Origin: a virus | Taxonomy: Duplodnaviria > Caudoviricetes | IMG/VR virus record: IMGVR_UViG_3300044266_000273 | Location: 31,902 to 95,901 of that record | Reading direction: 5' to 3' (one strand) | DNA length: 64,000 nucleotides | Notes under the pieces: model-generated | What the model was told of the DNA's origin: nothing | The model's database searches: none | The model's input: only the letters and a program-made list of their open reading frames with translations | Shown here: piece after piece, positions 8,489 through 18,894 of the stretch | Position numbering within the stretch: the first letter of the stretch is position 1 | Layout of the letters: each line of letters begins with the position of its first letter | Position numbers and translations under genes: made by a program

Positions 8489-8920
8489 ATGACTTTTTTA
8501 CCTAACCTCGACCTGGCTCGTCTTGATCCATTCACCATTGGATTTGACAAAATGTTCACGGAACTGCAACAAGCAACTAAGAACGTTACCAACTATCCCC
8601 CATATAATATCAAACAAGTTAAAGAAAACAAGTACGTCATTGAAATGGCTGTTGCTGGTTTTGCTAAGTCTGATATTGAAATCACGATTGATGGTAATAC
8701 TCTTATTATCAAGGGTGCAACCGAAGATGACAAAGCAGCCGATGAAGAATCCTTCATTTGGAAAGGAATTGCCAACCGCAATTTCAACCGTACATTCAAG
8801 TTGGCAGACAAGATTGAAATCAAAGATGCCGAACTTGTAAATGGTATGCTTCGAATCTGGTTGGAAAACATGGTCAAAGCCCAAGACGCTATTAAGAAAA
8901 TTTCCATCAAGGAAAAATAA
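8489..8920 (+). CDS. Small heat shock protein Hsp20
   Basis: YPPYNI, EMAVAGF and GIANRNF motifs. Confidence 0.95.
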   Translation: MTFLPNLDLARLDPFTIGFDKMFTELQQATKNVTNYPPYNIKQVKENKYVIEMAVAGFAKSDIEITIDGNTLIIKGATEDDKAADEESFIWKGIANRNFNRTFKLADKIEIKDAELVNGMLRIWLENMVKAQDAIKKISIKEK

Positions 8921-8926
8921 TGAAAT

Positions 8927-8964
8927 GAAGGGGGCTTGACAAGAGCCCCTTTTTATTATACAAT
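8927..8964 (+). terminator. Terminator hairpin overlapping a sigma70 promoter
   Basis: AAGGGGGCT/AGCCCCTTTTT hairpin; TTGACA(8936)-17-TACAAT. Confidence 0.65.
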
Positions 8965-8973
8965 TGATGTATT

Positions 8974-9168
8974 ATGAAAAAATACAATCAAAAGCCATCA
9001 ATACGCAAGGTTCGTTCTAAGGCGAATCAGGACGTTTATTACACTTCACCTCAATGGGAAACCAAAGAGATTGAAGGCGTAGTATTCATGCCTGTCGTAA
9101 AAATGCCCACAATGGAAAAACAAAATATCCATTGGATGCGTAAAGATAGCATGGAATATATCAAGTAG
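8974..9168 (+). CDS. Hypothetical protein
   Basis: 64-aa ORF directly downstream of a promoter. Confidence 0.55.
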   Translation: MKKYNQKPSIRKVRSKANQDVYYTSPQWETKEIEGVVFMPVVKMPTMEKQNIHWMRKDSMEYIK

Positions 9169-9243
9169 CGCTTGTAGCTCAGTGGTTAGAGCAGAGGACT
9201 CATAATCCTTTGGTCGTGGGTTCGAATCCCCCCGAGCGCACCA
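9168..9243 (+). tRNA. tRNA with CAT anticodon, probably Ile2 (lysidine)
   Basis: Cloverleaf with encoded CCA; D and anticodon arms resemble proteobacterial tRNA-Ile2. Confidence 0.85.
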
Positions 9244-9261
9244 TATAATTAAAGGAGTATC

Positions 9262-9711
9262 ATGTCTGTTACACTAAAGAATCTGGAGTCTGCATTGGCA
9301 GGTGAGTCTATGGCTCACATCAAGTACCGTTATTTTGCCAAGCTTGCTCGAGCTGAAGGTTACGAAGAAGTGGCCAAACACTTTGAACACACCGCAGATC
9401 AAGAATTACATCATGCGTGGAGTCATCTTGAGTTGTTGATTGGTACGCCTTCAACCAAAGAATGCTTGGAAAAAGCTATTGCAGGTGAAACATACGAATA
9501 CACTGAAATGTATCCTCAGTTCCTTGCAATTGCCGAGACAGAATGCAATCATCATGCAGCACGAATTGCAAAAGAGCAAATTATGGAAAGTGAAGAACAT
9601 GCTTTGCAGTTTATGGAAGTATTGAAGAAGGCCGAAAAACGTTTTGCTGCACTTGAGAAAGTTGAGAAGCGTCATGCGGAAGCCTATCAAAAAGTATTGG
9701 AGGGTCTATAA
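9262..9711 (+). CDS. Rubrerythrin (ferritin-like)
   Basis: AGESMA..Y, ELHHA, GETYE and ESEEHA di-iron motifs. Confidence 0.9.
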   Translation: MSVTLKNLESALAGESMAHIKYRYFAKLARAEGYEEVAKHFEHTADQELHHAWSHLELLIGTPSTKECLEKAIAGETYEYTEMYPQFLAIAETECNHHAARIAKEQIMESEEHALQFMEVLKKAEKRFAALEKVEKRHAEAYQKVLEGL

Positions 9712-9866
9712 TGTCTGAACAAAAAGTTATACATGTTTGCCCTGTATGTGAATATGTGCATGAAGATAATTCCGTTGTAACTTGGGAAAATTTACCTGAT
9801 GACCATCCTTGTCCAGCTTGCAGTGTTGAAAAAATGTTCTTTGAAGAAAGAGTTGTGACTGTATAA
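9711..9866 (+). CDS. Rubredoxin, 51 aa (missing from the ORF track)
   Basis: CPVCEYVHE...WENLPDDHPCPAC; ATG overlaps the rubrerythrin stop codon. Confidence 0.88.
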   Translation: MSEQKVIHVCPVCEYVHEDNSVVTWENLPDDHPCPACSVEKMFFEERVVTV

Positions 9867-9875
9867 TTTCACATT

Positions 9876-10304
9876 ATGAAACAGAAATTTCGTGATGTTT
9901 ATATGAAAACGGCCGAGGTGTTCGCTGAACTATCCTCGGCTCGCAGACTTCATGTTGGTGCGATTGTTGTAAAAGATGACCGCATCATTTCTATTGGTTA
10001 CAATGGCATGCCATCTGGTTGGGACAATAACTGTGAGATTGAATTGAAACAACCAGTTAATCGTGTGAATTTGGTTACAAAACCAGAGGTGCTTCATGCT
10101 GAAACAAATGCAATCGCTAAGTTGGCAAAATCTACTGAATCTGGCAGCGGTGCTACTCTTTTTGTCACTCATGCTCCTTGTCTGGAATGCGCCAAGTTGG
10201 TTTATCAGTCTGGTATTAATTCTGTGTACTATAGGAATAGTTACCGTGATACGAATGGCCTGGATTTCCTACAAAAATGCAATGTTACAGTGGAAAAAAT
10301 TTGA
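9876..10304 (+). CDS. cd: dCMP deaminase
   Basis: GYNG, HAETNAI and PCLEC motifs. Confidence 0.93.
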   Translation: MKQKFRDVYMKTAEVFAELSSARRLHVGAIVVKDDRIISIGYNGMPSGWDNNCEIELKQPVNRVNLVTKPEVLHAETNAIAKLAKSTESGSGATLFVTHAPCLECAKLVYQSGINSVYYRNSYRDTNGLDFLQKCNVTVEKI

Positions 10305-11385: not shown

Positions 11386-11432
11386 TTAAAAAAGTTTACT
11401 ATATACCTTTATAACTTTTGATGGAGTTTTAA

Positions 11433-11537
11433 TTGTTACACATATCCAAACCCGTTACAACCTGTGAGTATCGCACACCATTTATTGGTAGCGATAATCA
11501 GTCATGGCTACACGGCAAAGGGGTATGTGAAACCTAG
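11433..11537 (+). CDS. Possible 34-aa leader peptide (TTG start)
   Basis: GGAG RBS upstream; followed by a terminator. Confidence 0.3.
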   Translation: MLHISKPVTTCEYRTPFIGSDNQSWLHGKGVCET

Positions 11538-11565
11538 TAAAACCTAAAAAGTAAAAAAATTTCAC

Positions 11566-11596
11566 AAGCCCCACCCTAAAAAAGTGGGGTTTTTTG
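11566..11596 (+). terminator. Intrinsic terminator
   Basis: AAGCCCCAC/GTGGGGTTT hairpin with T run. Confidence 0.75.
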
Positions 11597-11681
11597 TTGC
11601 TTTTTTGCAACACACGTATTGACAAAGTTCTAGAACTGTGTATAATTCGTGATTCGTTCTTAAAAAATTTAAAGTAGTTTG
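11595..11681 (+). promoter_or_regulatory. tRNA operon promoter P1 with upstream palindrome and boxA-like leader
   Basis: TGTTG-N8-CAACA; TTGACA-16-TATAAT; 29-nt leader TTCGTTCTTAAAAAATTTAAAGTAGTTTG. Confidence 0.75.
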
Positions 11682-11682
11682 T

Positions 11683-11759
11683 AGCCGCTTCGCCAAGTCC
11701 GGTAAGGCACTTGATTTTGATTCAAGCATTCGGTGGTTCGAATCCATCAGCGGCTGCCA
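11683..11759 (+). tRNA. tRNA-Gln(TTG)
   Basis: Cloverleaf with encoded CCA. Confidence 0.9.
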
Positions 11760-11853
11760 TATTGAAGCACATTATAGTGACGCATGAGCAGGTCATTAAC
11801 TTCCGCTGGTTACGCCAATCGTAAGTGAGTGAAGATAGTGTGTTTCAATATGG
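11757..11853 (+). ncRNA. Stem-bounded cassette A1
   Basis: Arms CCATATTGAAGCACATT / AGTGTGTTTCAATATGG enclosing a unique 63-nt insert. Confidence 0.7.
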
Positions 11854-11859
11854 TTTATT

Positions 11860-11950
11860 GGAAACGTGGCAGAGTCCGGTTTATTGCAACAGTCTTGAAA
11901 ACTGTCGAGCGCATCATGCTCCGTGAGTTCGAATCTCACCGTTTCCGCCA
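11860..11950 (+). tRNA. tRNA-Ser(TGA)
   Basis: Cloverleaf with long variable arm and CCA. Confidence 0.92.
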
Positions 11951-11956
11951 ATTTTC

Positions 11957-12046
11957 CGAGAACGGGCAGGACGGTAATGCAGCGGATTGCTAATCCGTAG
12001 ATTCATGAAAATGGATCACAGGGTTCGACTCCCTGGTTCTCGGCCA
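11957..12046 (+). tRNA. tRNA-Ser(GCT)
   Basis: Cloverleaf with long variable arm and CCA. Confidence 0.9.
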
Positions 12047-12063
12047 AGTTGTGTTGCAACTGA

Positions 12064-12110
12064 TTTGAGGAACTCCCGTACACCTCAAAAAGAATGACAA
12101 AAAAACGGGG
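12064..12110 (+). ncRNA. Predicted H-type pseudoknot 1
   Basis: TTTGAGG/CCTCAAA stem; loop TCCCGT pairs with ACGGGG after an A-rich linker. Confidence 0.5.
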
Positions 12111-12114
12111 CCAT

Positions 12115-12206
12115 GCCAGCGAGACTTGGTAGTCAGAGAGGTCTTATAAGCCTTTTAGCGCCAGATTAGCGTTCTTGAGAGTGTTCGATTCACTCCGCTG
12201 GTACCA
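12115..12206 (+). tRNA. Atypical tRNA with TAT anticodon and long variable arm
   Basis: 7-bp acceptor stem, GACT-TGGT-AGTC D arm, CTTATAA loop, long V arm, CCA. Confidence 0.75.
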
Positions 12207-12211
12207 ATTAT

Positions 12212-12287
12212 GTGCGTGTGATCCGAATGGTTAGGAAGCGGATTGCAAATCCGTATTATGCAGGTTCGACTCCTGTCACGCACTCCA
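12212..12287 (+). tRNA. tRNA-Cys(GCA)
   Basis: Cloverleaf with U discriminator and CCA. Confidence 0.9.
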
Positions 12288-12292
12288 ATAAA

Positions 12293-12378
12293 TGTTGTAT
12301 TTGTACAACAGCTGGTTGACAAACCTTCCAGTTCATGTACAATACATCTTTCGTTCTTAAAAAATTTAAAGTAGTTTG
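12293..12378 (+). promoter_or_regulatory. tRNA operon promoter P2 with palindrome and identical boxA-like leader
   Basis: TGTTG-N8-CAACA; TTGACA-16-TACAAT; same 29-nt leader at 12350-12378. Confidence 0.75.
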
Positions 12379-12453
12379 CTCGGTTCGTCTATCGGTTTAG
12401 GACGCTAGCCTTTCACGCTGGAAAGACGGGTTCGACTCCCGTACCGAGTACCA
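12378..12453 (+). tRNA. tRNA-Glu(TTC)
   Basis: Cloverleaf with CCA. Confidence 0.92.
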
Positions 12454-12574
12454 TTTGTTTTGCTGATTGTAAGCCATGGGCTTGATCATGCCTGAGTAAC
12501 TATGTATATAATTGCGGTAATTCTAGACAATCCCGCATGAGCATAGCAAATAGTGCAGTCAGCAAAACAAATGG
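12451..12574 (+). ncRNA. Stem-bounded cassette B (different arm sequence)
   Basis: CCATTTGTTTTGCTGATTG / CAGTCAGCAAAACAAATGG, a 19-21 bp stem around a structured insert. Confidence 0.65.
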
Positions 12575-12580
12575 TAATAG

Positions 12581-12656
12581 GCGGGTATAACTCAGTTGGT
12601 AGAGTAACTGGCTTTTAACCAGTAAGTCCTCGGTTCGAGCCCGAGTGCCCGTACCA
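12581..12656 (+). tRNA. tRNA-Lys(TTT)
   Basis: Cloverleaf with CCA. Confidence 0.92.
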
Positions 12657-12663
12657 AGTTTTT

Positions 12664-12756
12664 GGGTGTCTTGATGCTAAGGCGTGTGCATCACCAGACT
12701 GTAAATCTGGTCCCTCGTGGTAAACATTCGCGGTTCGACTCCGTGGACACCCACCA
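12664..12756 (+). tRNA. tRNA-Tyr(GTA) with extended D arm
   Basis: CCAGA-CTGTAAA-TCTGG anticodon arm and CCA. Confidence 0.85.
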
Positions 12757-12765
12757 AATTATAAT

Positions 12766-12842
12766 GCCCTGGTGACGGAATTGGTATACGTGTTGGTCTT
12801 AGAAGCCAAATTTTGAGAGTTCGAGTCTCTCCTAGGGCACCA
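12766..12842 (+). tRNA. tRNA-Leu(TAG) with short variable loop
   Basis: 77-nt cloverleaf with CCA. Confidence 0.85.
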
Positions 12843-12918
12843 TATTGAAGCACATTCTTTGAGGTCTTGGTCGTTACCGGCGTATGCAAAAACGGCGACA
12901 GAGTGTGTTTCAATATGG
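12840..12918 (+). ncRNA. Stem-bounded cassette A2
   Basis: Same arms as A1 around a unique 45-nt insert. Confidence 0.7.
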
Positions 12919-12990
12919 TGAGAGTAAGGGTGGTATGTAGGTGTTCTCTCAACACTGAGGACTGGGATTCCCTGGCCAGCAACACTGGCG

Positions 12991-13070
12991 CCATATTGAA
13001 GCACATTATCAATGTAGGTTCGATTCCTCGCCATTGATCCGGTTGCTGGTGTTAGTGTGTTTCAATATGG
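12991..13070 (+). ncRNA. Stem-bounded cassette A3
   Basis: Same arms as A1 around a unique 46-nt insert with a T-loop-like hairpin. Confidence 0.7.
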
Positions 13071-13143
13071 TCTCAAAGTGTTCATGGACGCACGTATGCC
13101 TGTCACGCATAAAGAAGGGGATCGTTACCCCTTGGGACCGCCA
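13069..13143 (+). tRNA. tRNA-Asp(GTC)
   Basis: Cloverleaf with non-canonical T loop ATCGTTA and CCA. Confidence 0.85.
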
Positions 13144-13159
13144 TAAATATTTTTTCTAT

Positions 13160-13234
13160 TCCCCAATAGCTCAGTGGTAGAGCAAAGCACTGTTAATGCT
13201 TGGGTCCGAGGTTCGAAACCTTGTTGGGGAGCCA
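13160..13234 (+). tRNA. tRNA-Asn(GTT)
   Basis: Cloverleaf with CCA. Confidence 0.92.
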
Positions 13235-13240
13235 AATAAA

Positions 13241-13317
13241 CGGAGTGTAGCACAGCCTGGTAGTGCGCTTGCTTTGGGAGCAAGAGGTCCAAGGTTCGAA
13301 TCCTTGTACTCCGACCA
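13241..13317 (+). tRNA. tRNA-Pro(TGG)
   Basis: Cloverleaf with CCA. Confidence 0.93.
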
Positions 13318-13321
13318 ATCT

Positions 13322-13361
13322 CGCCTTGACTGACGGCGTACAGAAGGATAAATTGTCAGTT
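13322..13361 (+). ncRNA. Predicted H-type pseudoknot 2
   Basis: CGCC/GGCG stem; loop GACTGAC pairs with GTCAGTT downstream of GATAAAT. Confidence 0.45.
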
Positions 13362-13366
13362 TATAT

Positions 13367-13441
13367 GGGCTGCTAGTGATAATGGGAGCACGCCGGCTTT
13401 GCACGTCGGAGGTTGGAGTTCGATCCTCCAGCGGTCCACCA
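13367..13441 (+). tRNA. tRNA-Ala(TGC)
   Basis: Cloverleaf with G3-U70 pair and CCA. Confidence 0.9.
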
Positions 13442-13445
13442 TTAC

Positions 13446-13520
13446 GGTTCAATGACGTAGACGGATGCGTACCGGTTTCATAAGCCGAGGAGATTGGATC
13501 GTTACCAATTTGAACCACCA
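13446..13520 (+). tRNA. tRNA-Met(CAT), probably elongator
   Basis: Cloverleaf with TTCATAA loop, T loop ATCGTTA and CCA. Confidence 0.8.
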
Positions 13521-13525
13521 AATTT

Positions 13526-13600
13526 CGGTCTTTGGTGAAACGAATATCACGTAGGGCTACGGACCCTAAGTTAGGGGTTTGATTCCTCTAGGACCGGCCA
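13526..13600 (+). tRNA. tRNA-Arg(ACG)
   Basis: TAGGG-CTACGGA-CCCTA anticodon arm and CCA. Confidence 0.85.
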
Positions 13601-13602
13601 AA

Positions 13603-13676
13603 ACCCGCGTAGCTCAATGGTAGAGCAAAGTGCTGATAACGCTGAGACACAAGTTCGATTCTTGTCGTGGGTACCA
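13603..13676 (+). tRNA. tRNA-Ile(GAT)
   Basis: Cloverleaf with CCA. Confidence 0.88.
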
Positions 13677-13681
13677 GTAAT

Positions 13682-13755
13682 TCCGGGGTAGTATAATGGC
13701 AGTGCGGCGGTCTCCAAAACCGTTAGTGGGGGTTCGATTCCCTCTCCCGGAGCCA
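13682..13755 (+). tRNA. tRNA-Trp(CCA)
   Basis: Cloverleaf with CCA end. Confidence 0.9.
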
Positions 13756-13778
13756 ATATATAATAACAAGAGGTTAAT

Positions 13779-14261
13779 ATGAAAAAATTAGATATTGCTG
13801 AAGTTAAAAAATTCATTCAGGCACAAAGCCCTGATACTAAGATTTATCTTGGTGCTGATTCCGAACGTTTTAGAATGGACGGAAAATGGTATGCAGACTA
13901 CACTTTGGCAGTTGTTGTTCATATTAACGGCCGCCACGGGTGTAAGATTTTTGGTGAAGTTCAACGTGAGTTGGATTATGACCAAAAGAAAAGTAAGCCT
14001 GCATTACGTTTGATGAATGAAGTATATAAAGTTGCTGACTTGTTCAATCAACTTATTGATGTAATTGAAGATAGACACGTAGAAGTTCATTTAGATATTA
14101 ATCCTGATGAACACTTCGGTTCTTCATGCGTTATTCAACAAGCGATTGGTTATATTCGTGGCACATGTAACGTGGTGCCAATGGTTAAACCAAAAGCGTT
14201 TGCTGCGTCATATGCTGCTGACAGATTAAAACATGTCATGGCTATGTCTAAAGCTGCTTAA
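13779..14261 (+). CDS. RNase H-like YkuK (DUF458) family protein
   Basis: IYLGADS, RLMNEV, EVHLDIN and AASYAAD motifs; GAGG RBS. Confidence 0.8.
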   Translation: MKKLDIAEVKKFIQAQSPDTKIYLGADSERFRMDGKWYADYTLAVVVHINGRHGCKIFGEVQRELDYDQKKSKPALRLMNEVYKVADLFNQLIDVIEDRHVEVHLDINPDEHFGSSCVIQQAIGYIRGTCNVVPMVKPKAFAASYAADRLKHVMAMSKAA

Positions 14262-14264
14262 TAT

Positions 14265-14339
14265 GGTGTCTATGGTGTAGTGGAAGCATTACTCTCTGTG
14301 AAAGAGTAGGTACGAGGTCGGTACTCGTTAGACACCCCA
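14265..14339 (+). tRNA. tRNA-His(GTG)
   Basis: G-1:C73 pair, GTG anticodon and CCA. Confidence 0.88.
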
Positions 14340-14355
14340 ACAAAAGGAATAGATT

Positions 14356-14595
14356 ATGATCCCACTTAATAATAATGTAATTGTTAAACGTTCAGAAAAA
14401 AAGTTAACAACTGAATCTGGAATTATATTGCAACGAAATGATGATGCAGATTTTGCGGATGTTATTTCTGTTGGGCCAGATGTCGTTGATGTGACTGTCG
14501 GTGAAAAAGTGTTGTTGGATTGGAACAAAGCAATAAAAATTGACAAAGAAAATTTTAAAATTTCTGTTGACAACATTATTGCAGTTGCAGTATAA
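14356..14595 (+). CDS. groES: Co-chaperonin GroES
   Basis: PLNNNVIVK, TESGIIL and VGPDV motifs. Confidence 0.88.
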   Translation: MIPLNNNVIVKRSEKKLTTESGIILQRNDDADFADVISVGPDVVDVTVGEKVLLDWNKAIKIDKENFKISVDNIIAVAV

Positions 14596-14605
14596 TTAAC
14601 TCATC

Positions 14606-14679
14606 GCCTCCTTAGTTTAATGGTAGAACTCCGTCTTTACACGGCGGTTACGGCAGTTCGATTCTGTCAGGAGGCACCA
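14606..14679 (+). tRNA. tRNA-Val(TAC)
   Basis: Cloverleaf with CCA. Confidence 0.9.
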
Positions 14680-14682
14680 ACG

Positions 14683-14756
14683 GCTCTCATAGTATAAAGG
14701 TATTACACATCCTTGGTAAGGCTGAGACACAGGATCGTTACCTGTTGAGAGCACCA
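14683..14756 (+). tRNA. tRNA-Thr(GGT)
   Basis: Cloverleaf with T loop ATCGTTA and CCA. Confidence 0.85.
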
Positions 14757-14760
14757 ATAT

Positions 14761-14836
14761 GCCGCTATGGTGAAGGTGGTCCTCACGCTGGTCTGAAGTA
14801 CCAGAGAACTCTGATCGTAACAGAGTGGCGGCACCA
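14761..14836 (+). tRNA. tRNA-Phe(GAA)
   Basis: CTGGT-CTGAAGT-ACCAG anticodon arm, T loop ATCGTAA and CCA. Confidence 0.82.
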
Positions 14837-14838
14837 TA

Positions 14839-14913
14839 CTGGCGTTAGTTCAATGGACAGAACAGTAGCCTTCTAAGCTATTAATAGAGGTTCGATTCCT
14901 CTACGCCGGACCA
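14839..14913 (+). tRNA. tRNA-Arg(TCT)
   Basis: Cloverleaf with CCA. Confidence 0.92.
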
Positions 14914-14917
14914 ATTA

Positions 14918-15007
14918 GCCCGAATGGTGAAATAGGTAGACACAAGAGACTTAAAATCTCTCGCTTCCGAAAGGGGCGTGCCGGTTCGATTCCGGCTTCG
15001 GGCACCA
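14918..15007 (+). tRNA. tRNA-Leu(TAA)
   Basis: Cloverleaf with long V arm and CCA. Confidence 0.93.
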
Positions 15008-15025
15008 AGTTTACCAAAATTGTAC

Positions 15026-15054
15026 TTGACTTATTAAAAAATACACTATATAAT
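15026..15054 (+). promoter_or_regulatory. Internal sigma70-type promoter P3
   Basis: TTGACT-17-TATAAT. Confidence 0.65.
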
Positions 15055-15063
15055 AATGACATT

Positions 15064-15136
15064 GCGGGTGTTCTCCTGGGAGAGGACTTAGCCTTCCAAG
15101 CTAAAGAAGCCGGTTCGAATCCGACCACCCGCTCCA
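15064..15136 (+). tRNA. tRNA-Gly(TCC)
   Basis: Cloverleaf with U discriminator and CCA. Confidence 0.88.
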
Positions 15137-15144
15137 AAATTTAA

Positions 15145-15218
15145 GCCCTTTTAGTATAATGGCATTACGTCGGTTTTGTAATCCGAATACGGGAGTTCGA
15201 TTCTCTCAAGGGGCACCA
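15145..15218 (+). tRNA. tRNA-Thr(TGT)
   Basis: Cloverleaf with CCA. Confidence 0.9.
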
Positions 15219-15223
15219 AGATT

Positions 15224-15297
15224 GCGGGATTAGTTTATTGGTAAAACGAAACCTTGCCAAGGTTTAGTGATCAGTTCGATTCTGATATCCCGCTCCA
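15224..15297 (+). tRNA. tRNA-Gly(GCC)
   Basis: Cloverleaf with CCA. Confidence 0.9.
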
Positions 15298-15300
15298 GAA

Positions 15301-15495
15301 CGTGCCGTCTAATCAACGGCTAGTGTGACCCACATGACAGGAAGTGGCGTGATAACCACGGGTGGTAGTCTTTAAACCGAAAGGCCGCTGGCAATGCGTA
15401 AACGGCCCTTGTCGAGGAGCGGGTGGAAGGTATAGTGAGGGGCTAAAAGCCTGATGCATATACTACAATTACCGCCGAGGGGCGTCAGAGCATTT
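15301..15495 (+). ncRNA. Unclassified ~195-nt GC-rich structured RNA
   Basis: Multiple stems (GCCGT/ACGGC, GGTGGTAGT/ATTACCGCC, CC-GAAA-GG, GGCCG/CGGCC) between two tRNAs; no ORF in the track. Confidence 0.6.
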
Positions 15496-15500
15496 TATTT

Positions 15501-15575
15501 CGCGGGATGGGAAAGTAGAAATCCGCTTGGCTCATAACCAAGAGATCGGTGGTGCGAATCCACCTCCCGCAACCA
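15501..15575 (+). tRNA. Initiator tRNA-fMet(CAT)
   Basis: C1:A72 mismatch, CGCGGG 5' end, CTCATAA loop and CCA. Confidence 0.88.
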
Positions 15576-15577
15576 AA

Positions 15578-15853
15578 CTACTTTAAATTTTCTTCTCTAC
15601 AGGACCTCTCACGGTATACTTTACCTTCGGGCGTCTGTATTTCTTTCCACTCGGTGCACACAATTTGTTTTTCCACCACGATTGGTTGTTGCGATTTGAC
15701 TATTTCATAGACAACTACACCACTAACGATTGATGGAATAACCCAACCCATACCTGGTTTCCAAACCCAATGTGGATGTGGTTGTTGATGTCTATATTGT
15801 GCCGATGCACTCAGTGAAACAACTGCAAGTAAAAGAACTACGAACTTTTTCAT
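15578..15853 (-). CDS. Small secreted hypothetical protein
   Basis: Sec signal peptide (ASA site) and two Cys near the C-terminus. Confidence 0.65.
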   Translation of the reverse strand: MKKFVVLLLAVVSLSASAQYRHQQPHPHWVWKPGMGWVIPSIVSGVVVYEIVKSQQPIVVEKQIVCTEWKEIQTPEGKVYRERSCREENLK

Positions 15854-15862
15854 GTTATCTCC

Positions 15863-17866
15863 TTATTTGCTTGTTGCTCTGTACACACCATCCCATGTAG
15901 ATGGTTTACCTTCTCTCAGGCGTTCAAGCATAGCTTCATAATATTTGTGCAATTCTGACCCGTCTTGTATTGCTTTTTCGGCAATTTCTATTGCCTTGTC
16001 CCAATCGCCGTTGTAATATGCATCTAAGAATTGTTCTTGTGTGATGGCTTGGCCTAATGTATAAATCTTCACGCCTTCCTTCTTTCCTTTAACTGCAATA
16101 CAATCCAATTCAACAACAGGATATTCATCTTTAACCTGTTCTGCGGTGAGTGTTCCTAAAACAATTTTGACACCGTATGGTTTACTTTGGCCTTCTAGGC
16201 GTGATGCGAGGTTAACATGATCGCCAAGACATGTATAATCAAAACGCTGAGAAGAACCCATATTGCCAACAACGACAACACCTGTATTAATACCAAGTCC
16301 CATTCCGAAAGCTGGAACTCCTTCTGCAGCAATTTCTTTATTGAACGCATCTAAACTATCCATCATTTGTATTGCTGTTTTTACGGCCATCTTTGCATGG
16401 TTGGGTTCATCTAACGGTGCGTTCCAGAATGCCATCTGAGCATCGCCAATATATTTATCTAAAGTTCCGTTATTTTCAATAATTTTTGCGGTCATTGCTG
16501 TCATGTAACGATTCATAATTTTGGTGAGCCCCTGAACATCCTTACCATAGTGTTCGGAGATTGTTGTGAAACCACGAACATCGGTAAACATAATCGACAA
16601 TTCACGTGATTCGCCACCAAGAACCAACAGTTCCGGATTCTTCTGTAATTTTTCTACCAGTGCTGGGCTTAGATATGTTCCAAATTGTTTTTTGATTTGG
16701 AGCTTTTGGCGCAACTCGACAAGGAACTTGACAACATATCCATGGACGCTAACCAACCCAATGGCGAGTATCGGAAATACAGCATCAAGTAGATAACCTG
16801 ATCGTAAAAATAATTCAATCCCTGCATAGTAGGTAGCGACTGCCAAGGAGATTGTGAAGATGTAGCCATGTGTGAACCTTGTAATAAAGAACAGAGATAA
16901 TACAGATATAAGAGCAATGAATAAAAGTTCACTTACAGTTGCCCAATCCGGTCTACTGATATTTGTACCTGATGTAACTGTATCTAACACACTGGCTTGC
17001 AGATGGTGTGGAAACACTTCTCCTTTGGCAGTTGCAACTGGATTGTTAAGACCCTTGCCTGTGATGCCAACGATTACGATCTTGCCACCAAAATCAGCAG
17101 GTAATTCGGACAGAGAATATTCTTTTGCTTTTGATGACCAATCAATCCAAATTCTACCAACATTGTCTGTTGTTATCTTACCAAATTTAGGTATACGTAA
17201 CGCTTCAATTGACCCGTCGTTTACCTTGACCTGAAAACTTGGATCGCCTGCAGCAACACGAAGTGTTTCCATTGACATACTTGGATATAACAAGTCATTT
17301 GTACGAACGACCATCGGTATACGGCGAGTAACACCATCAATCTCCGGCAATACGTTGACTACACCAATACCAGCAGCAGAGTCATTTAGAACTTTGATGT
17401 TTGGTTGTATTGTACCGTAGTTGATACCAACATCACCTTCACCAATGATGGAAACACCTGGCCTAAATGGTTCGTAATTTCTTGTTGATTTATCAGATGT
17501 AGCTACGTGAGGTAGAACAACTGGATATTTTTTTATTGCAGCAGATAACGCAGCATCGCCACCAAACCTATCAGGCTCAGGCATATAGACGTTAAACACA
17601 ACCAACCCAGCACCACGAGCGTAGATATCAGCAATAATGGCGGCATATTCCCGACGGGGGAATGGGAACTGTCCTTTTTGTCGAATAGTTTCGTCATCTA
17701 TGTTTACCACGGCGACTTGTTGGGACTCCGTGCTCTCTTTTGAAGTGATGAGTTGGTCAAAATATCTAAGCCTGACCGACTCAACGAAAGACGGATCTTG
17801 CACTCTAATAAACAAGACAAGTAGTAGAGTAAGCAAGGCCATCCAAGGAGATAATAATTTTTTCAT
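15863..17866 (-). CDS. CHASE2-sensor class III adenylate/guanylate cyclase
   Basis: VVNIDDE/FPFPR and DGVTRR (CHASE2), three TM segments, FTDVRGFT, DKYIGDA and GDHVNLASRLE. Confidence 0.93.
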   Translation of the reverse strand: MKKLLSPWMALLTLLLVLFIRVQDPSFVESVRLRYFDQLITSKESTESQQVAVVNIDDETIRQKGQFPFPRREYAAIIADIYARGAGLVVFNVYMPEPDRFGGDAALSAAIKKYPVVLPHVATSDKSTRNYEPFRPGVSIIGEGDVGINYGTIQPNIKVLNDSAAGIGVVNVLPEIDGVTRRIPMVVRTNDLLYPSMSMETLRVAAGDPSFQVKVNDGSIEALRIPKFGKITTDNVGRIWIDWSSKAKEYSLSELPADFGGKIVIVGITGKGLNNPVATAKGEVFPHHLQASVLDTVTSGTNISRPDWATVSELLFIALISVLSLFFITRFTHGYIFTISLAVATYYAGIELFLRSGYLLDAVFPILAIGLVSVHGYVVKFLVELRQKLQIKKQFGTYLSPALVEKLQKNPELLVLGGESRELSIMFTDVRGFTTISEHYGKDVQGLTKIMNRYMTAMTAKIIENNGTLDKYIGDAQMAFWNAPLDEPNHAKMAVKTAIQMMDSLDAFNKEIAAEGVPAFGMGLGINTGVVVVGNMGSSQRFDYTCLGDHVNLASRLEGQSKPYGVKIVLGTLTAEQVKDEYPVVELDCIAVKGKKEGVKIYTLGQAITQEQFLDAYYNGDWDKAIEIAEKAIQDGSELHKYYEAMLERLREGKPSTWDGVYRATSK

Positions 17867-18894
17867 CGTGATATTTGTTTTATAATAATTTTGTTAGTTG
17901 TAGAATCTTGATTCTTAATGTACAATGTGGTACTATCCTGAATCAACGTAATATCATATCCTCTATCTTTATTTATGAGTATGGTCGCTAAGTCTTTGAC
18001 GCGGCGTTCTATGTACCAATAGGTATTACGGTCAAGTATGTAGAGTTGTGTAGTTGGATTGTAACCTACAGGAAACGAACTGATATCAAATATGTTTTCC
18101 AATGCGTTTGTCAAATTATTCGTATCAAGGTCGTTGATATTCAATTCATTGAACTTGAGTTCATCTTTGAATACTTGTTCGTTTAGTGGATTATAATCTA
18201 ATGCGTTAAAAGAAAGTGGATTATTATCTCTTGTGTTTTCTTCTTGCAGTGCCTTGACAATTTCTTTTGGTGGTTTGACTATCAACATATTGTCAATCAT
18301 AGACTCCGTTAGATTCAAAATTGCAGGCGCAAGAGGCTTTGCTTCAGCTAGGCCAGCATATGTGGCTTGAAATGCTTTGTTTAAAGTCACAGACCCCATT
18401 GCCGTGCGGACTTCAATCTCCCCGACGGTGCCATCTTGATTTGGAAGAAGAATAATTGTCGATGCACCTACTTCATCCACTGTCATAGAGAAAGCAGTAC
18501 CTCGCACCGCAACTGTTGCTGTCGGCGTCTTCACATCAACATTCTTGTTATTCTCTTTGGCTATATTACCTGAAGCATATCGTACTGTGCCGAGTGCAAC
18601 TTTCATTGCAAGTTTGCCAGTACCTTTTGATTTAGGATCATATACGAAATCATCAATCACCAATTTTGAATGTTGTGTGACACGTACTTTTGTGTCGTCC
18701 TCAAACGTAATTCCAACTATACCGTTGGCCGTTTGAACGCTATCCATAGACTCGACGCCAGCATTCATCTTGGCGTCGAGTTTCAACTTATTACGAACTA
18801 TCTCACTACTTCCCTTTTCTTCAGTTACTTTACCAATAGATGCAAAACAATTAATGCTGAGTGATAGTAGTAGTAGTGCTATTACCCGTAACAT
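17863..18894 (-). CDS. FecR-domain periplasmic protein
   Basis: Signal peptide and TPTATVAVRGTAF motif. Confidence 0.85.
   Translation of the reverse strand: MLRVIALLLLSLSINCFASIGKVTEEKGSSEIVRNKLKLDAKMNAGVESMDSVQTANGIVGITFEDDTKVRVTQHSKLVIDDFVYDPKSKGTGKLAMKVALGTVRYASGNIAKENNKNVDVKTPTATVAVRGTAFSMTVDEVGASTIILLPNQDGTVGEIEVRTAMGSVTLNKAFQATYAGLAEAKPLAPAILNLTESMIDNMLIVKPPKEIVKALQEENTRDNNPLSFNALDYNPLNEQVFKDELKFNELNINDLDTNNLTNALENIFDISSFPVGYNPTTQLYILDRNTYWYIERRVKDLATILINKDRGYDITLIQDSTTLYIKNQDSTTNKIIIKQISR

What the first reader, a model, noticed from the sequence alone, without database searches (positions are those of the whole stretch)
11757..13070. Constant-stem, variable-cargo small-RNA cassettes fused to tRNA CCA ends (top candidate new system)
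Seen: three cassettes (11757-11853, 12840-12918, 12991-13070) have identical 17-nt arms CCATATTGAAGCACATT and AGTGTGTTTCAATATGG around unrelated inserts of 63, 45 and 46 nt. The arms pair fully only if two G-U wobbles are allowed, and the wobbles are the same in all copies, which favours an RNA helix over a DNA terminal inverted repeat. The 5' CCA of each arm is the CCA end of the preceding tRNA (Gln, Leu) or of a CCA-ending element, and the last GG of cassette A3 is the start of tRNA-Asp. The inserts contain their own hairpins. Inference: the array works as a polycistronic platform in which tRNA processing and/or RNase III releases scaffolded small RNAs with interchangeable cargo (guides, antisense RNAs or decoys for defence proteins). 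Alternatively the stems gate tRNA 3' maturation by sequestering CCA. I know of no described family matching this, but could not search.
Basis: partly seen in the sequence, partly recalled or inferred. Interest (0 to 1): 0.88.

Follow-up and report, generated by a model that had tools for sequence, protein, structure and literature searches.

The report
RNase III-type stem cassettes in phage tRNA array
An uncultured T4-like phage, like more than a hundred uncultured relatives, places hairpins with one shared 17-base-pair stem and very different folded inserts between its tRNA genes. The stem looks like a cutting site for the host enzyme RNase III, so it probably frees both the tRNAs and a large, undescribed set of small phage RNAs.

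Summary
Three cassettes (11757-11853, 12840-12918, 12991-13070) have identical 17-nt arms around unrelated inserts of 63, 45 and 46 nt. They start on the CCA of tRNA-Gln, tRNA-Leu and a CCA-ending RNA, and the third ends on G1-G2 of tRNA-Asp.

The family is real and widespread. The exact 5' arm occurs in at least 119 IMG/VR contigs. I found 241 cassettes carrying 133 unrelated insert families, always on the tRNA strand. None occurs in 596 Gb of prokaryote genomes or in GenBank phages, and there is no Rfam match.

The stem is an RNA helix with strong covariation, and the G.U wobbles lie on the tRNA strand only. The inserts also show compensatory changes, and T-loop motifs are enriched in them.

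Measured against the published E. coli RNase III rules and the T7 R1.1 site, the stem carries both recognition boxes at the right spacing, plus a second, mirror-image proximal box that includes the CCA. One position departs from the rules.

My best reading (about 0.55) is a host RNase III "cut-here" adaptor that releases tRNAs and stem-capped small RNAs whose function is unknown. No RNA data could be obtained.

Other agents of this scan reported the same family in other genomes. I found no published description.

The parts
11757..11853 (+). Cassette A1. 5' arm 11757-11773, insert 11774-11836 (63 nt), 3' arm 11837-11853. Predicted RNase III cuts at 11763|11764 and 11848|11849.
   Evidence: -37.2 kcal/mol, z = -6.1. 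Covariance model R1 scores 53.6 bits on + against 36.3 on -. The cut sites are inferred from the box mapping.
12840..12918 (+). Cassette A2. Arms 12840-12856 and 12902-12918, insert 45 nt. Predicted cuts at 12846|12847 and 12913|12914.
   Evidence: z = -6.1. R1 scores 65.6 bits on +. The same insert occurs in L002/L189 and L118.
12991..13070 (+). Cassette A3. Arms 12991-13007 and 13054-13070, insert 46 nt with a T-arm-like hairpin. The last GG is G1-G2 of tRNA-Asp. Predicted cuts at 12997|12998 and 13065|13066.
   Evidence: R1 scores 57.8 bits. Fourteen nt of the insert are identical to the T-arm of tRNA-Arg(tct) at 14888-14901.
12451..12575 (+). Cassette B. A variant 21-bp stem starts on the CCA of tRNA-Glu. 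The ~87-nt insert is 94-99% identical to inserts that carry the canonical arms in other contigs.
   Evidence: In alignment A2 the insert and the top 4 bp (AUUG/CAGU) are shared and the lower stem is replaced. The closest relative, L168, has the same variant.
12919..12990 (+). X element. A conserved ~72-nt structured RNA lies between cassettes A2 and A3 and ends in hairpin + N + CCA.
   Evidence: Homologs in at least 9 loci are always bracketed by a 3' arm and a 5' arm. It has three covarying helices: 93% paired, 8 of 15 pairs changed on both sides, 0 of 500 shuffles as high. No Rfam hit.
11683..11759 (+). tRNA-Gln(ttg). Its CCA is the first 3 nt of A1.
12766..12842 (+). tRNA-Leu(tag). Its CCA is the first 3 nt of A2.
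13069..13143 (+). tRNA-Asp(gtc). G1-G2 are the last 2 nt of A3. The T-loop is atypical (AUCGUUA).
   Evidence: ARAGORN only; not found by Rfam. The acceptor stem was checked by eye.
12378..12453 (+). tRNA-Glu(ttc). Its CCA starts cassette B.
11619..11646 (+). Consensus sigma-70 promoter (12 of 12) driving the unit Gln-A1-Ser-Ser...
   Evidence: A terminator-like hairpin lies at 11573-11590 upstream.
12316..12343 (+). Sigma-70 promoter (11 of 12) driving the unit Glu-B-Lys-Tyr-Leu-A2-X-A3-Asp...
   Evidence: The same leader sequence follows as after the first promoter.

Best explanation
The cassettes are RNA elements transcribed as part of the phage's tRNA operons. Their shared stem is a double-stranded RNA processing signal of the type cut by host RNase III, as at the T7 R1.1 site.

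The enzyme would cut both strands about 7 bp above the base: CCAUAUU^GAAG... on the 5' arm and ...UUUCAA^UAUGG on the 3' arm. The upstream tRNA, or other CCA-ending RNA, would be left with a 4-nt trailer for exonuclease trimming. The downstream tRNA would be left with a 3-10-nt leader for RNase P. The insert would be released as a small RNA capped by a helix of at least 10-11 bp with a 2-nt overhang.

Shown here: the RNA-level helix, the family, its context, and the sequence fit to the RNase III rules. Inferred: the cleavage itself, the identity of the enzyme, and any function of the released inserts. The inserts are structured and under selection, and some mimic tRNA T-arms.

The repeated stem probably also serves as portable homology that lets cassettes be gained, lost and swapped between phages.
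For: RNA helix on the tRNA strand:
- 241 cassettes were found, and 239 have the wobble-compatible orientation on the tRNA strand.
- 98.4% of cells are paired, with 64 double compensatory cells against 4.2 for shuffled partners (maximum 12 in 1000 shuffles).
- The tool count on alignment A1 gives 11 of 17 pairs changed on both sides and 0 of 500 shuffles as high.
- Position 11 is G.U, G-C or A-U and never A.C.
- Model R1 scores 54-66 bits on + against 36-40 on -.

Fit to the E. coli RNase III consensus (PMC1540722) and to the T7 R1.1 stem read from NC_001604:
- U17-A matches distal box position 1 and U16.G matches distal box position 2.
- A 4-bp spacer follows, as in the consensus.
- G11 matches proximal box position 1, A10-U position 2 and A9-U position 3.
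- A10-U is invariant in 177 of 177 and 45 of 45 arm pairs. A9-U holds in 92-96%.

Second, mirror-image proximal box:
- On the 3' arm, read downward, U-A-U-G fits W-A-W-G.
- The most conserved pairs (3, 4, 9, 10) are therefore symmetric about the predicted dyad at bp 6.5.
- The least conserved, mismatch-tolerant pairs (7, 8) sit at the predicted cut.

Helix length: 84% of insert families add at least 1 bp above bp 17. That gives the 11-bp minimum between cut and helix end (PMC1540722).

Context:
- The cassettes lie inside promoter-driven tRNA units and carry no terminator tail.
- In complete relatives they are confined to the RNA locus.
- No phage RNase III gene was found in three records that are at least 92% complete. 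A review (PMC4810235) reports that E. coli RNase III takes part in T4 tRNA maturation.

Inserts appear to be functional RNAs:
- Compensatory changes occur within insert families. In family C5, 7 covarying pairs sit under an invariant loop.
- GGTTCGA occurs in 11 of 133 insert families against 0.5 expected.
Against:
- The host is unknown, and the box rules are from E. coli. The same paper says distal boxes may differ between species.
- Proximal box position 4 is G-C in the window copies and in 79% of exact-arm cassettes. In E. coli a G-C there suppresses catalysis without blocking binding.
- In relatives sampled through a protein, U16.G falls to 53% and position 11 is A-U in half. The two boxes are therefore less strict than in uR1.1.
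- Among 28 unrelated-looking CCA...UGG stems, only 9 have the U.G/U-A pair, which is only modestly above chance.
- Cassette B is not independent evidence. It shares its top 4 bp with canonical cassettes by descent.
- Most tRNAs in these arrays are separated by 1-9 nt with no hairpin, so the stems are not needed for tRNA release as such.
Confidence: 0.55

Rival explanations
1. Clamp stem recognised by some other factor. The constant helix mainly protects and presents the insert, or is bound or cut by a phage protein. A candidate is the RNase H-fold YkuK-like (PF04308) protein encoded inside the array (13779-14261), or an unknown host protein other than RNase III.
For: - Sequence conservation of the stem exceeds what pairing alone needs.
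- The PF04308 ORF lies within the tRNA array on the same strand. It has 240 IMG/VR relatives and was seen in 27 of 119 arm-selected loci.
- The family is placed in the RNase H1 clade of endonucleases, with unknown function (PMC3985635).
- The G-C at the position next to the predicted scissile bond is unfavourable for E. coli RNase III.
Against: - 42 of 80 loci that carry the PF04308 gene have no canonical-like cassette within 8 kb. These include the window's closest relatives, L167 and L168.
- No dsRNA-binding domain or TROVE/Ro60 gene is present in the record.
- The two-fold symmetric conservation pattern and the box spacing are explained specifically by RNase III.
Confidence: 0.2
2. CCA gate. 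The stem's purpose is to sequester the CCA end of the upstream tRNA (and G1-G2 of the next one). This would delay or regulate maturation or charging of particular tRNAs, and the insert would be a mere loop.
For: - 89 of 214 cassettes share the CCA with an ARAGORN tRNA, and 27 share the GG with the next tRNA.
- Non-tRNA neighbours also end in hairpin + N + CCA more often than control CCA sites do: terminal hairpins of 5 bp or more occur at 33% against 9%.
Against: - The upstream tRNA varies (Gln, Leu, Glu, Lys, Ile, Arg, Tyr...), and syntenic arrays lack the cassette at the same junction.
- Some cassettes start 3 nt after the CCA, with UU...AA ends (L002).
- The inserts are long and conserved and show covariation, which a passive loop does not need.
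Confidence: 0.08
3. DNA-level element only. The cassettes would be miniature inverted-repeat transposons, or recombination sites (attC-like or PeSL-like), with no function as RNA.
For: - Cassettes are present or absent, and their inserts differ, at the same tRNA junction in syntenic arrays.
- The same insert appears in different tRNA contexts and with different lower stems.
- T4-type phages are known to shuffle modules through repeated stem-loop motifs called PeSLs (PMC2839356, PMC4122927).
Against: - The G.U wobbles are strand-specific and always on the tRNA sense strand.
- No target-site duplication appears at filled versus empty sites.
- No promoter hexamers or U-tract are present in the stems.
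- The cassettes are confined to the RNA operon in complete genomes rather than dispersed.
- The inserts covary as RNA.
- A recombination role can coexist with the RNA role.
Confidence: 0.07
4. Decayed tRNA genes. The cassettes would be remnants of tRNAs whose acceptor stems were replaced or extended, carried along without function.
For: - T-loop motifs are enriched in the inserts.
- One 66-nt insert family (C11) reads as D-arm, anticodon arm and T-arm without an acceptor stem.
- The A3 insert copies the T-arm of tRNA-Arg.
Against: - Only about 10% of insert families carry a T-loop motif.
- Inserts range from 25 to 115 nt and fall into 133 unrelated families.
- Compensatory changes show ongoing selection.
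- The stem itself is under strong selection.
Confidence: 0.05

Closest known systems
Phage T7 RNase III processing signals (R1.1; minimal substrate uR1.1; Pertzev & Nicholson 2006, PMC1540722)
   Same: - Both are hairpins inside a polycistronic phage transcript.
- The 5' strand ...AAG-4 bp-UU with U.G then U-A at the top matches T7 AAGGUCAUU at 8 of 10 positions, with identical spacing between the proximal and distal boxes.
- A second proximal box lies on the other side of the cut, as in R1.1[WC].
- The helix length of 18-20 bp is similar.
   Different: - The T7 sites separate mRNAs and carry a short apical loop. Here the apex is a 25-115-nt structured RNA drawn from more than 130 families.
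- Here the base of the stem is built on a tRNA CCA end and often on the next tRNA's G1-G2.
- The pair next to the predicted cut is G-C.
- Cleavage was not tested here.
Phage T4 stable RNAs rnaC and rnaD (species 1 and 2) in the T4 tRNA cluster
   Same: - Both are small non-tRNA RNAs of unknown function encoded directly after a tRNA in a T4-type tRNA cluster.
- rnaC carries a T-arm-like hairpin and paired ends.
   Different: - rnaC and rnaD have no shared long stem and no sequence similarity.
- T4 has two fixed genes rather than a modular family.
- rnaD shows no significant fold (z = -0.8).
PeSL motifs of T4-type phages (PMC2839356, PMC4122927)
   Same: Both are a repeated conserved stem-loop motif bracketing variable modules in T4-type genomes, associated with gain, loss and replacement of modules between relatives.
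   Different: PeSLs are promoter-plus-terminator DNA motifs around protein-coding ORFs. The stems here have no promoter or terminator features, enclose RNAs, and show RNA-type covariation.
Bacterial and phage Y RNAs (YrlA type) bound by Ro60/Rsr (from my own knowledge, not checked in a paper)
   Same: Both have a conserved stem formed by the 5' and 3' ends plus a variable module that can mimic tRNA T and D arms.
   Different: There is no Rfam Y_RNA or YrlA match even at E up to 5. There is no TROVE gene in the record. The stem sequence is unrelated, and most inserts are not tRNA-like.
HDV-like theta ribozymes downstream of phage tRNAs (PMC10879173, seen; not read)
   Same: Both are an RNA element placed directly at the 3' end of phage tRNAs that would free the tRNA end.
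   Different: That element is a self-cleaving ribozyme with a fixed core. Here inserts as short as 25 nt and of unrelated sequence exclude a common catalytic core, and there is no Rfam ribozyme hit.

Membership tests
E. coli-type RNase III processing site (T7 R1.1-like) | Double helix of about two turns, with at least 11 bp between the cut and the end of the helix | tested here: met
   The constant stem is 17 bp. 84% of 133 insert families add at least 1 bp, giving at least 11 bp above the predicted cut at bp 7|8 (rule from PMC1540722).
E. coli-type RNase III processing site (T7 R1.1-like) | Distal box: U-A (position 1) next to U.G (position 2) | tested here: met
   All three window copies have U17-A and U16.G. 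In the exact-arm set the frequencies are 96% and 86%. In the protein-sampled set they are 98% and 53%.
E. coli-type RNase III processing site (T7 R1.1-like) | Proximal box: position 1 G-C, position 2 AU/UA, position 3 A-U, position 4 AU/UA, lying 4 bp below the distal box | tested here: inconclusive
   The spacing is exact. Position 2 (A10-U) is invariant and position 3 (A9-U) holds in 92-96%. Position 1 is G.U, G-C or A-U. Position 4 is G8-C in the window, an antideterminant in E. coli, and is the most variable pair. The mirror box on the 3' arm (U-A-U-G) fits fully.
E. coli-type RNase III processing site (T7 R1.1-like) | Cleavage by RNase III leaving 2-nt 3' overhangs | not testable with these tools
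T4 rnaC/rnaD stable RNAs | Sequence or structure homology to T4 species 1 or species 2 RNA | tested here: not met
   T4 L166:1909-2172 was read and folded. It has no long terminal stem and no similarity. Only the genomic setting is shared.
Any Rfam 15 family | Covariance-model match at or near the gathering score | tested here: not met
   Only tRNAs match at the gathering threshold. At E up to 5 over 11400-15700 nothing credible overlaps the cassettes. Fourteen related loci gave only tRNAs, one GOLLD and one tmRNA.
MITE / terminal-inverted-repeat transposon | Target-site duplication; strand-neutral inverted repeats; dispersed copies | tested here: not met
   No duplication appears at filled versus empty Gln-Ser and Glu-Lys junctions. 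The wobbles are only on the tRNA strand. Copies are confined to one RNA locus in complete genomes.
PeSL (promoter-early stem-loop) shuffling motif | Composite promoter plus terminator stem-loop flanking ORF modules | tested here: not met
   No promoter-like hexamers or U-tract occur at the cassettes, and they flank RNAs rather than ORFs. The shuffling behaviour is similar.
Y RNA / Ro60 system | Ro60 (TROVE) gene and a Y RNA covariance-model match | tested here: not met
   No TROVE match was found in the 95.9-kb record, which is 57% complete. There is no Rfam match.

The most novel reading that the evidence does not exclude
The shared stem is a portable expression-and-release adaptor. Through it, a whole clade of T4-like phages would deploy a large, rapidly exchanged repertoire of structured small RNAs: at least 133 insert families, plus bracketed RNAs such as the X element. 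Many of these would act as mimics or decoys, for example T-arm or anticodon-loop look-alikes, against host tRNA-targeting defences or RNA-binding proteins. That would amount to an RNA counterpart of the accessory-gene cassettes of phage hyperplastic regions.
Probability: 0.25. Interest if true: 0.85.

Novelty: new variant of a known kind. Interest (0 to 1): 0.66.

Why it matters
Phage tRNA arrays are usually annotated as tRNAs plus "spacers". Here the spacers contain a widespread, undescribed family of structured RNAs that share one processing stem.

If the stem is an RNase III site built onto the CCA end of a tRNA, three things follow:
- It explains how long phage RNA operons that mix tRNAs and non-tRNA RNAs are resolved.
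- It gives a simple search handle (the stem) for cataloguing hundreds of new phage small RNAs.
- It offers a natural, compact scaffold for releasing defined RNAs from tRNA operons.

The released inserts are conserved, covarying and sometimes tRNA-like. That makes them candidates for phage-host conflict functions, and these can now be tested one at a time.

Tried and rejected
- GenBank phages: no record holds the arms or the cassette B insert. Only tRNA similarity was found.
- Prokaryote genomes: 40 exact 17-mer hits in 596 Gb. None has a partner arm, so they are chance matches.
- Antisense targets: the four window inserts and X were compared with the whole 95.9-kb record. Only 8-14-nt matches at chance level appeared, apart from the T-arm copy.
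- Phage-encoded RNase III, dsRNA-binding domain and Ro60: none in this record. None of three near-complete relatives has an RNase III gene.
- Distal-box motif in unrelated stems: only 9 of 28 families have it, which is weak. Cassette B was dropped as independent support after one search showed shared descent of its top 4 bp.
- Self-cleaving ribozyme: rejected, because 25-nt inserts of unrelated sequence cannot hold a common core, and Rfam is negative.
- Integron attC, retron ncRNA and CRISPR-like repeats: considered from memory and rejected. There is no core site, no reverse transcriptase or integrase context was seen, and the stem length does not fit.
- Literature: searches found no description of this family. 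The IMG/VR structured-RNA catalogue (PMC10690425) does not describe it in its text.
Full report
**What is in the window.**
The region lies in a 27-tRNA array on the + strand of a 95.9-kb IMG/VR virus record that is 57% complete. The phage is T4-like: its DNA polymerase is about 50% identical to gp43 of cyanomyophages, and UvsX, a DnaB-like helicase and SbcC are nearby.

The three cassettes are exactly as described:
- Identical 17-nt arms enclose inserts of 63, 45 and 46 nt.
- Each first CCA is the CCA of tRNA-Gln, tRNA-Leu or a 72-nt CCA-ending RNA.
- The last GG of the third cassette is G1-G2 of ARAGORN's tRNA-Asp.

Each cassette folds as one long stem with inner hairpins (z about -6). Consensus sigma-70 promoters at 11619 and 12316 place all of the cassettes inside tRNA transcription units. 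None is followed by a U-tract.

**A large, virus-only family.**
In about 110 of them the partner arm follows after 25-115 nt of highly diverse sequence.
- Allowing up to 3 mismatches per arm, I found 241 cassettes in 119 loci plus the window. They fall into 133 insert clusters, 82 of them singletons.
- The 40 exact hits in 596 Gb of bacterial and archaeal genomes all lack a partner arm.
- GenBank phages have none.
- Rfam gives nothing, even at E up to 5.
- In complete relatives the cassettes are confined to the RNA locus.
- I also sampled relatives independently of the arm, through the RNase H-like protein encoded in the array. In that set 38 of 80 loci have such cassettes, and the arms vary more: only 8 of 70 have the exact 5' arm. 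"Constant" therefore really means one dominant variant of a stem family. The window's closest relatives (L167, L168) have only the variant cassette B.

**The stem is an RNA helix.**
- The wobble-compatible orientation coincides with the tRNA strand in 239 of 241 cases.
- Over 177 non-redundant arm pairs, 98.4% of cells pair.
- There are 64 double compensatory cells, against 4.2 when partners are shuffled.
- On alignment A1, 11 of 17 pairs change on both sides, no shuffle out of 500 does as well, and sliding the partner destroys the pairing.
- Position 11 is G.U, G-C or A-U and never A.C.
- The covariance model scores the + strand about 20 bits higher than the - strand.
- More diverged stems keep pairing through multiple compensatory changes.

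**The inserts look functional.**
- Within insert families from diverged phages, helices covary while loops stay fixed. In family C5, 7 pairs change on both sides among six sequences beneath an invariant loop.
- The T-loop motif GGTTCGA occurs in 11 of 133 families against 0.5 expected.
- One family reads as a tRNA without an acceptor stem.
- The A3 insert copies a tRNA-Arg T-arm.
- I found no antisense target in the record.

**Modularity.**
- Syntenic arrays (L063, L069, L102) have no cassette at Gln-Ser. They have other inserts, or none, at the Glu and Leu junctions, and there is no target-site duplication.
- The cassette B insert is 94-99% identical to inserts that carry canonical arms in other contigs. 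The exchange point lies inside the stem, below its top 4 bp.
- Non-tRNA RNAs such as the X element (12919-12990) are always bracketed by cassettes. X itself has three covarying helices.

**Mechanism.**
A note from another agent of this scan claimed that the stem equals the T7 R1.1 RNase III site, and I tested that claim.

The published E. coli rules (PMC1540722) are:
- an 11-bp helix between the cut and the helix end;
- a distal box of U-A then U.G;
- a proximal box of G-C, W, A-U, W, with the cut next to position 4.

T7 R1.1, read from NC_001604, is AAGGUCAUUC-GCAA-GAGUGGCCUU.

The stem here maps onto these rules as follows:
- It reads G8-A9-A10-G11-C-A-C-A-U16-U17, with U16.G and U17-A.
- This gives the same boxes at the same spacing. 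Eight of ten positions match T7.
- The 3' arm read downward (U-A-U-G-G) forms a second proximal box that includes the pairs made by the tRNA's CCA.

The conservation profile fits a dimeric enzyme:
- Pairs 3, 4, 9 and 10 are almost invariant and symmetric about bp 6.5.
- Pairs 7 and 8, at the predicted cut, are the most variable and tolerate A.C.
- 84% of insert families extend the helix to at least 11 bp above the cut.

No phage RNase III gene exists in this record or in three near-complete relatives, so the host enzyme is implied. RNase III is reported to take part in T4 tRNA maturation (PMC4810235).

**Weak points.**
- The pair at position 8 is G-C, which is a catalytic antideterminant in E. 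coli.
- The U.G at position 16 drops to 53% in the protein-sampled set.
- The host is unknown.
- There are no RNA data.

**Rivals.**
The rivals are weighed in their own sections. They are:
- a clamp recognised by another factor, for example the array-encoded PF04308 nuclease-fold protein, which occurs without cassettes in 42 of 80 loci;
- a CCA gate;
- a purely DNA-level element;
- decayed tRNAs.

**Comparison and novelty.**
The stem works like a T7-type RNase III signal, and the cassettes sit like T4 rnaC/rnaD. However, no known family combines:
- a shared processing stem built on tRNA ends;
- more than 130 exchangeable structured inserts.

I found no published description. The same family was reported by other agents of this scan in other genomes, so this window adds a further member and an independent check. 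I rate it a new variant of a known kind.

Noticed in passing
window 12919-12990 (+); homologs e.g. L064:875-951, L015:2568-2644, L009:12401-12477(-): X element: a conserved ~72-nt RNA that always lies between two cassettes. It has invariant stretches (AGGGUGGUAUGUAG, GAGGACYGGGAUUCC) and three covarying helices, two of which cross (a pseudoknot or alternative folds). It ends in hairpin + N + CCA. There is no Rfam match.
   Followed up: partly
window 13069-13143, 13446-13517, 14683-14756, 14761-14836 (+): Four tRNA genes have an atypical T-loop, AUCGUUA or AUCGUAA, instead of UUCGAAU. This swaps the usual 54/58 bases. Rfam's tRNA model misses two of them (Asp, Phe), and ARAGORN misses the one at 13446-13517.
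   Followed up: no
window 12114-12206 (+): A 92-nt tRNA-like gene that ARAGORN calls Ile(tat). It has a long extra arm. Its best Rfam match is tRNA-Sec at 33 bits, below the cut-off. The fold is good (z = -3.1).
   Followed up: no
window 13779-14261 (+): An ORF of the RNase H-like YkuK family (PF04308, E = 1e-14) lies inside the tRNA array on the tRNA strand. There are 240 relatives in IMG/VR, at up to 89% identity, at the same place in the arrays checked.
   Followed up: partly
L070:2411-2870 (-); L046:3991-4252 (-): RNA loci of related contigs also carry a GOLLD RNA (225 bits) and a permuted tmRNA (118 bits). These phage 'tRNA arrays' are therefore mixed RNA operons.
   Followed up: no
window 11619-11682 and 12316-12377 (+): Two copies of a promoter-plus-leader module: a near-perfect sigma-70 promoter followed by the same ~28-nt leader, just before the first tRNA of each unit. 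Further consensus promoters lie at 14567-14596 and 15026-15054.
   Followed up: partly
related loci, e.g. L029, L048, L058, L061, L004, L003: Several other conserved non-tRNA RNAs of 80-130 nt lie between cassettes. Each ends in a 5-7-bp hairpin, one base and CCA, which resembles a tRNA 3' end.
   Followed up: partly
L205 and L207 inter-tRNA spacers: A second recurring spacer hairpin type begins CCAAGUUUUAGGAU..CAUUCAGCAA and closes with ..AUCCUGU. It is different from the cassettes studied here.
   Followed up: no
window 15863-18894 (-): The phage record encodes a CHASE2-sensor adenylate/guanylate cyclase (667 aa) next to a FecR-domain protein. Elsewhere (8489-10304) it encodes Hsp20, rubrerythrin and a dCMP deaminase.
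   Followed up: no
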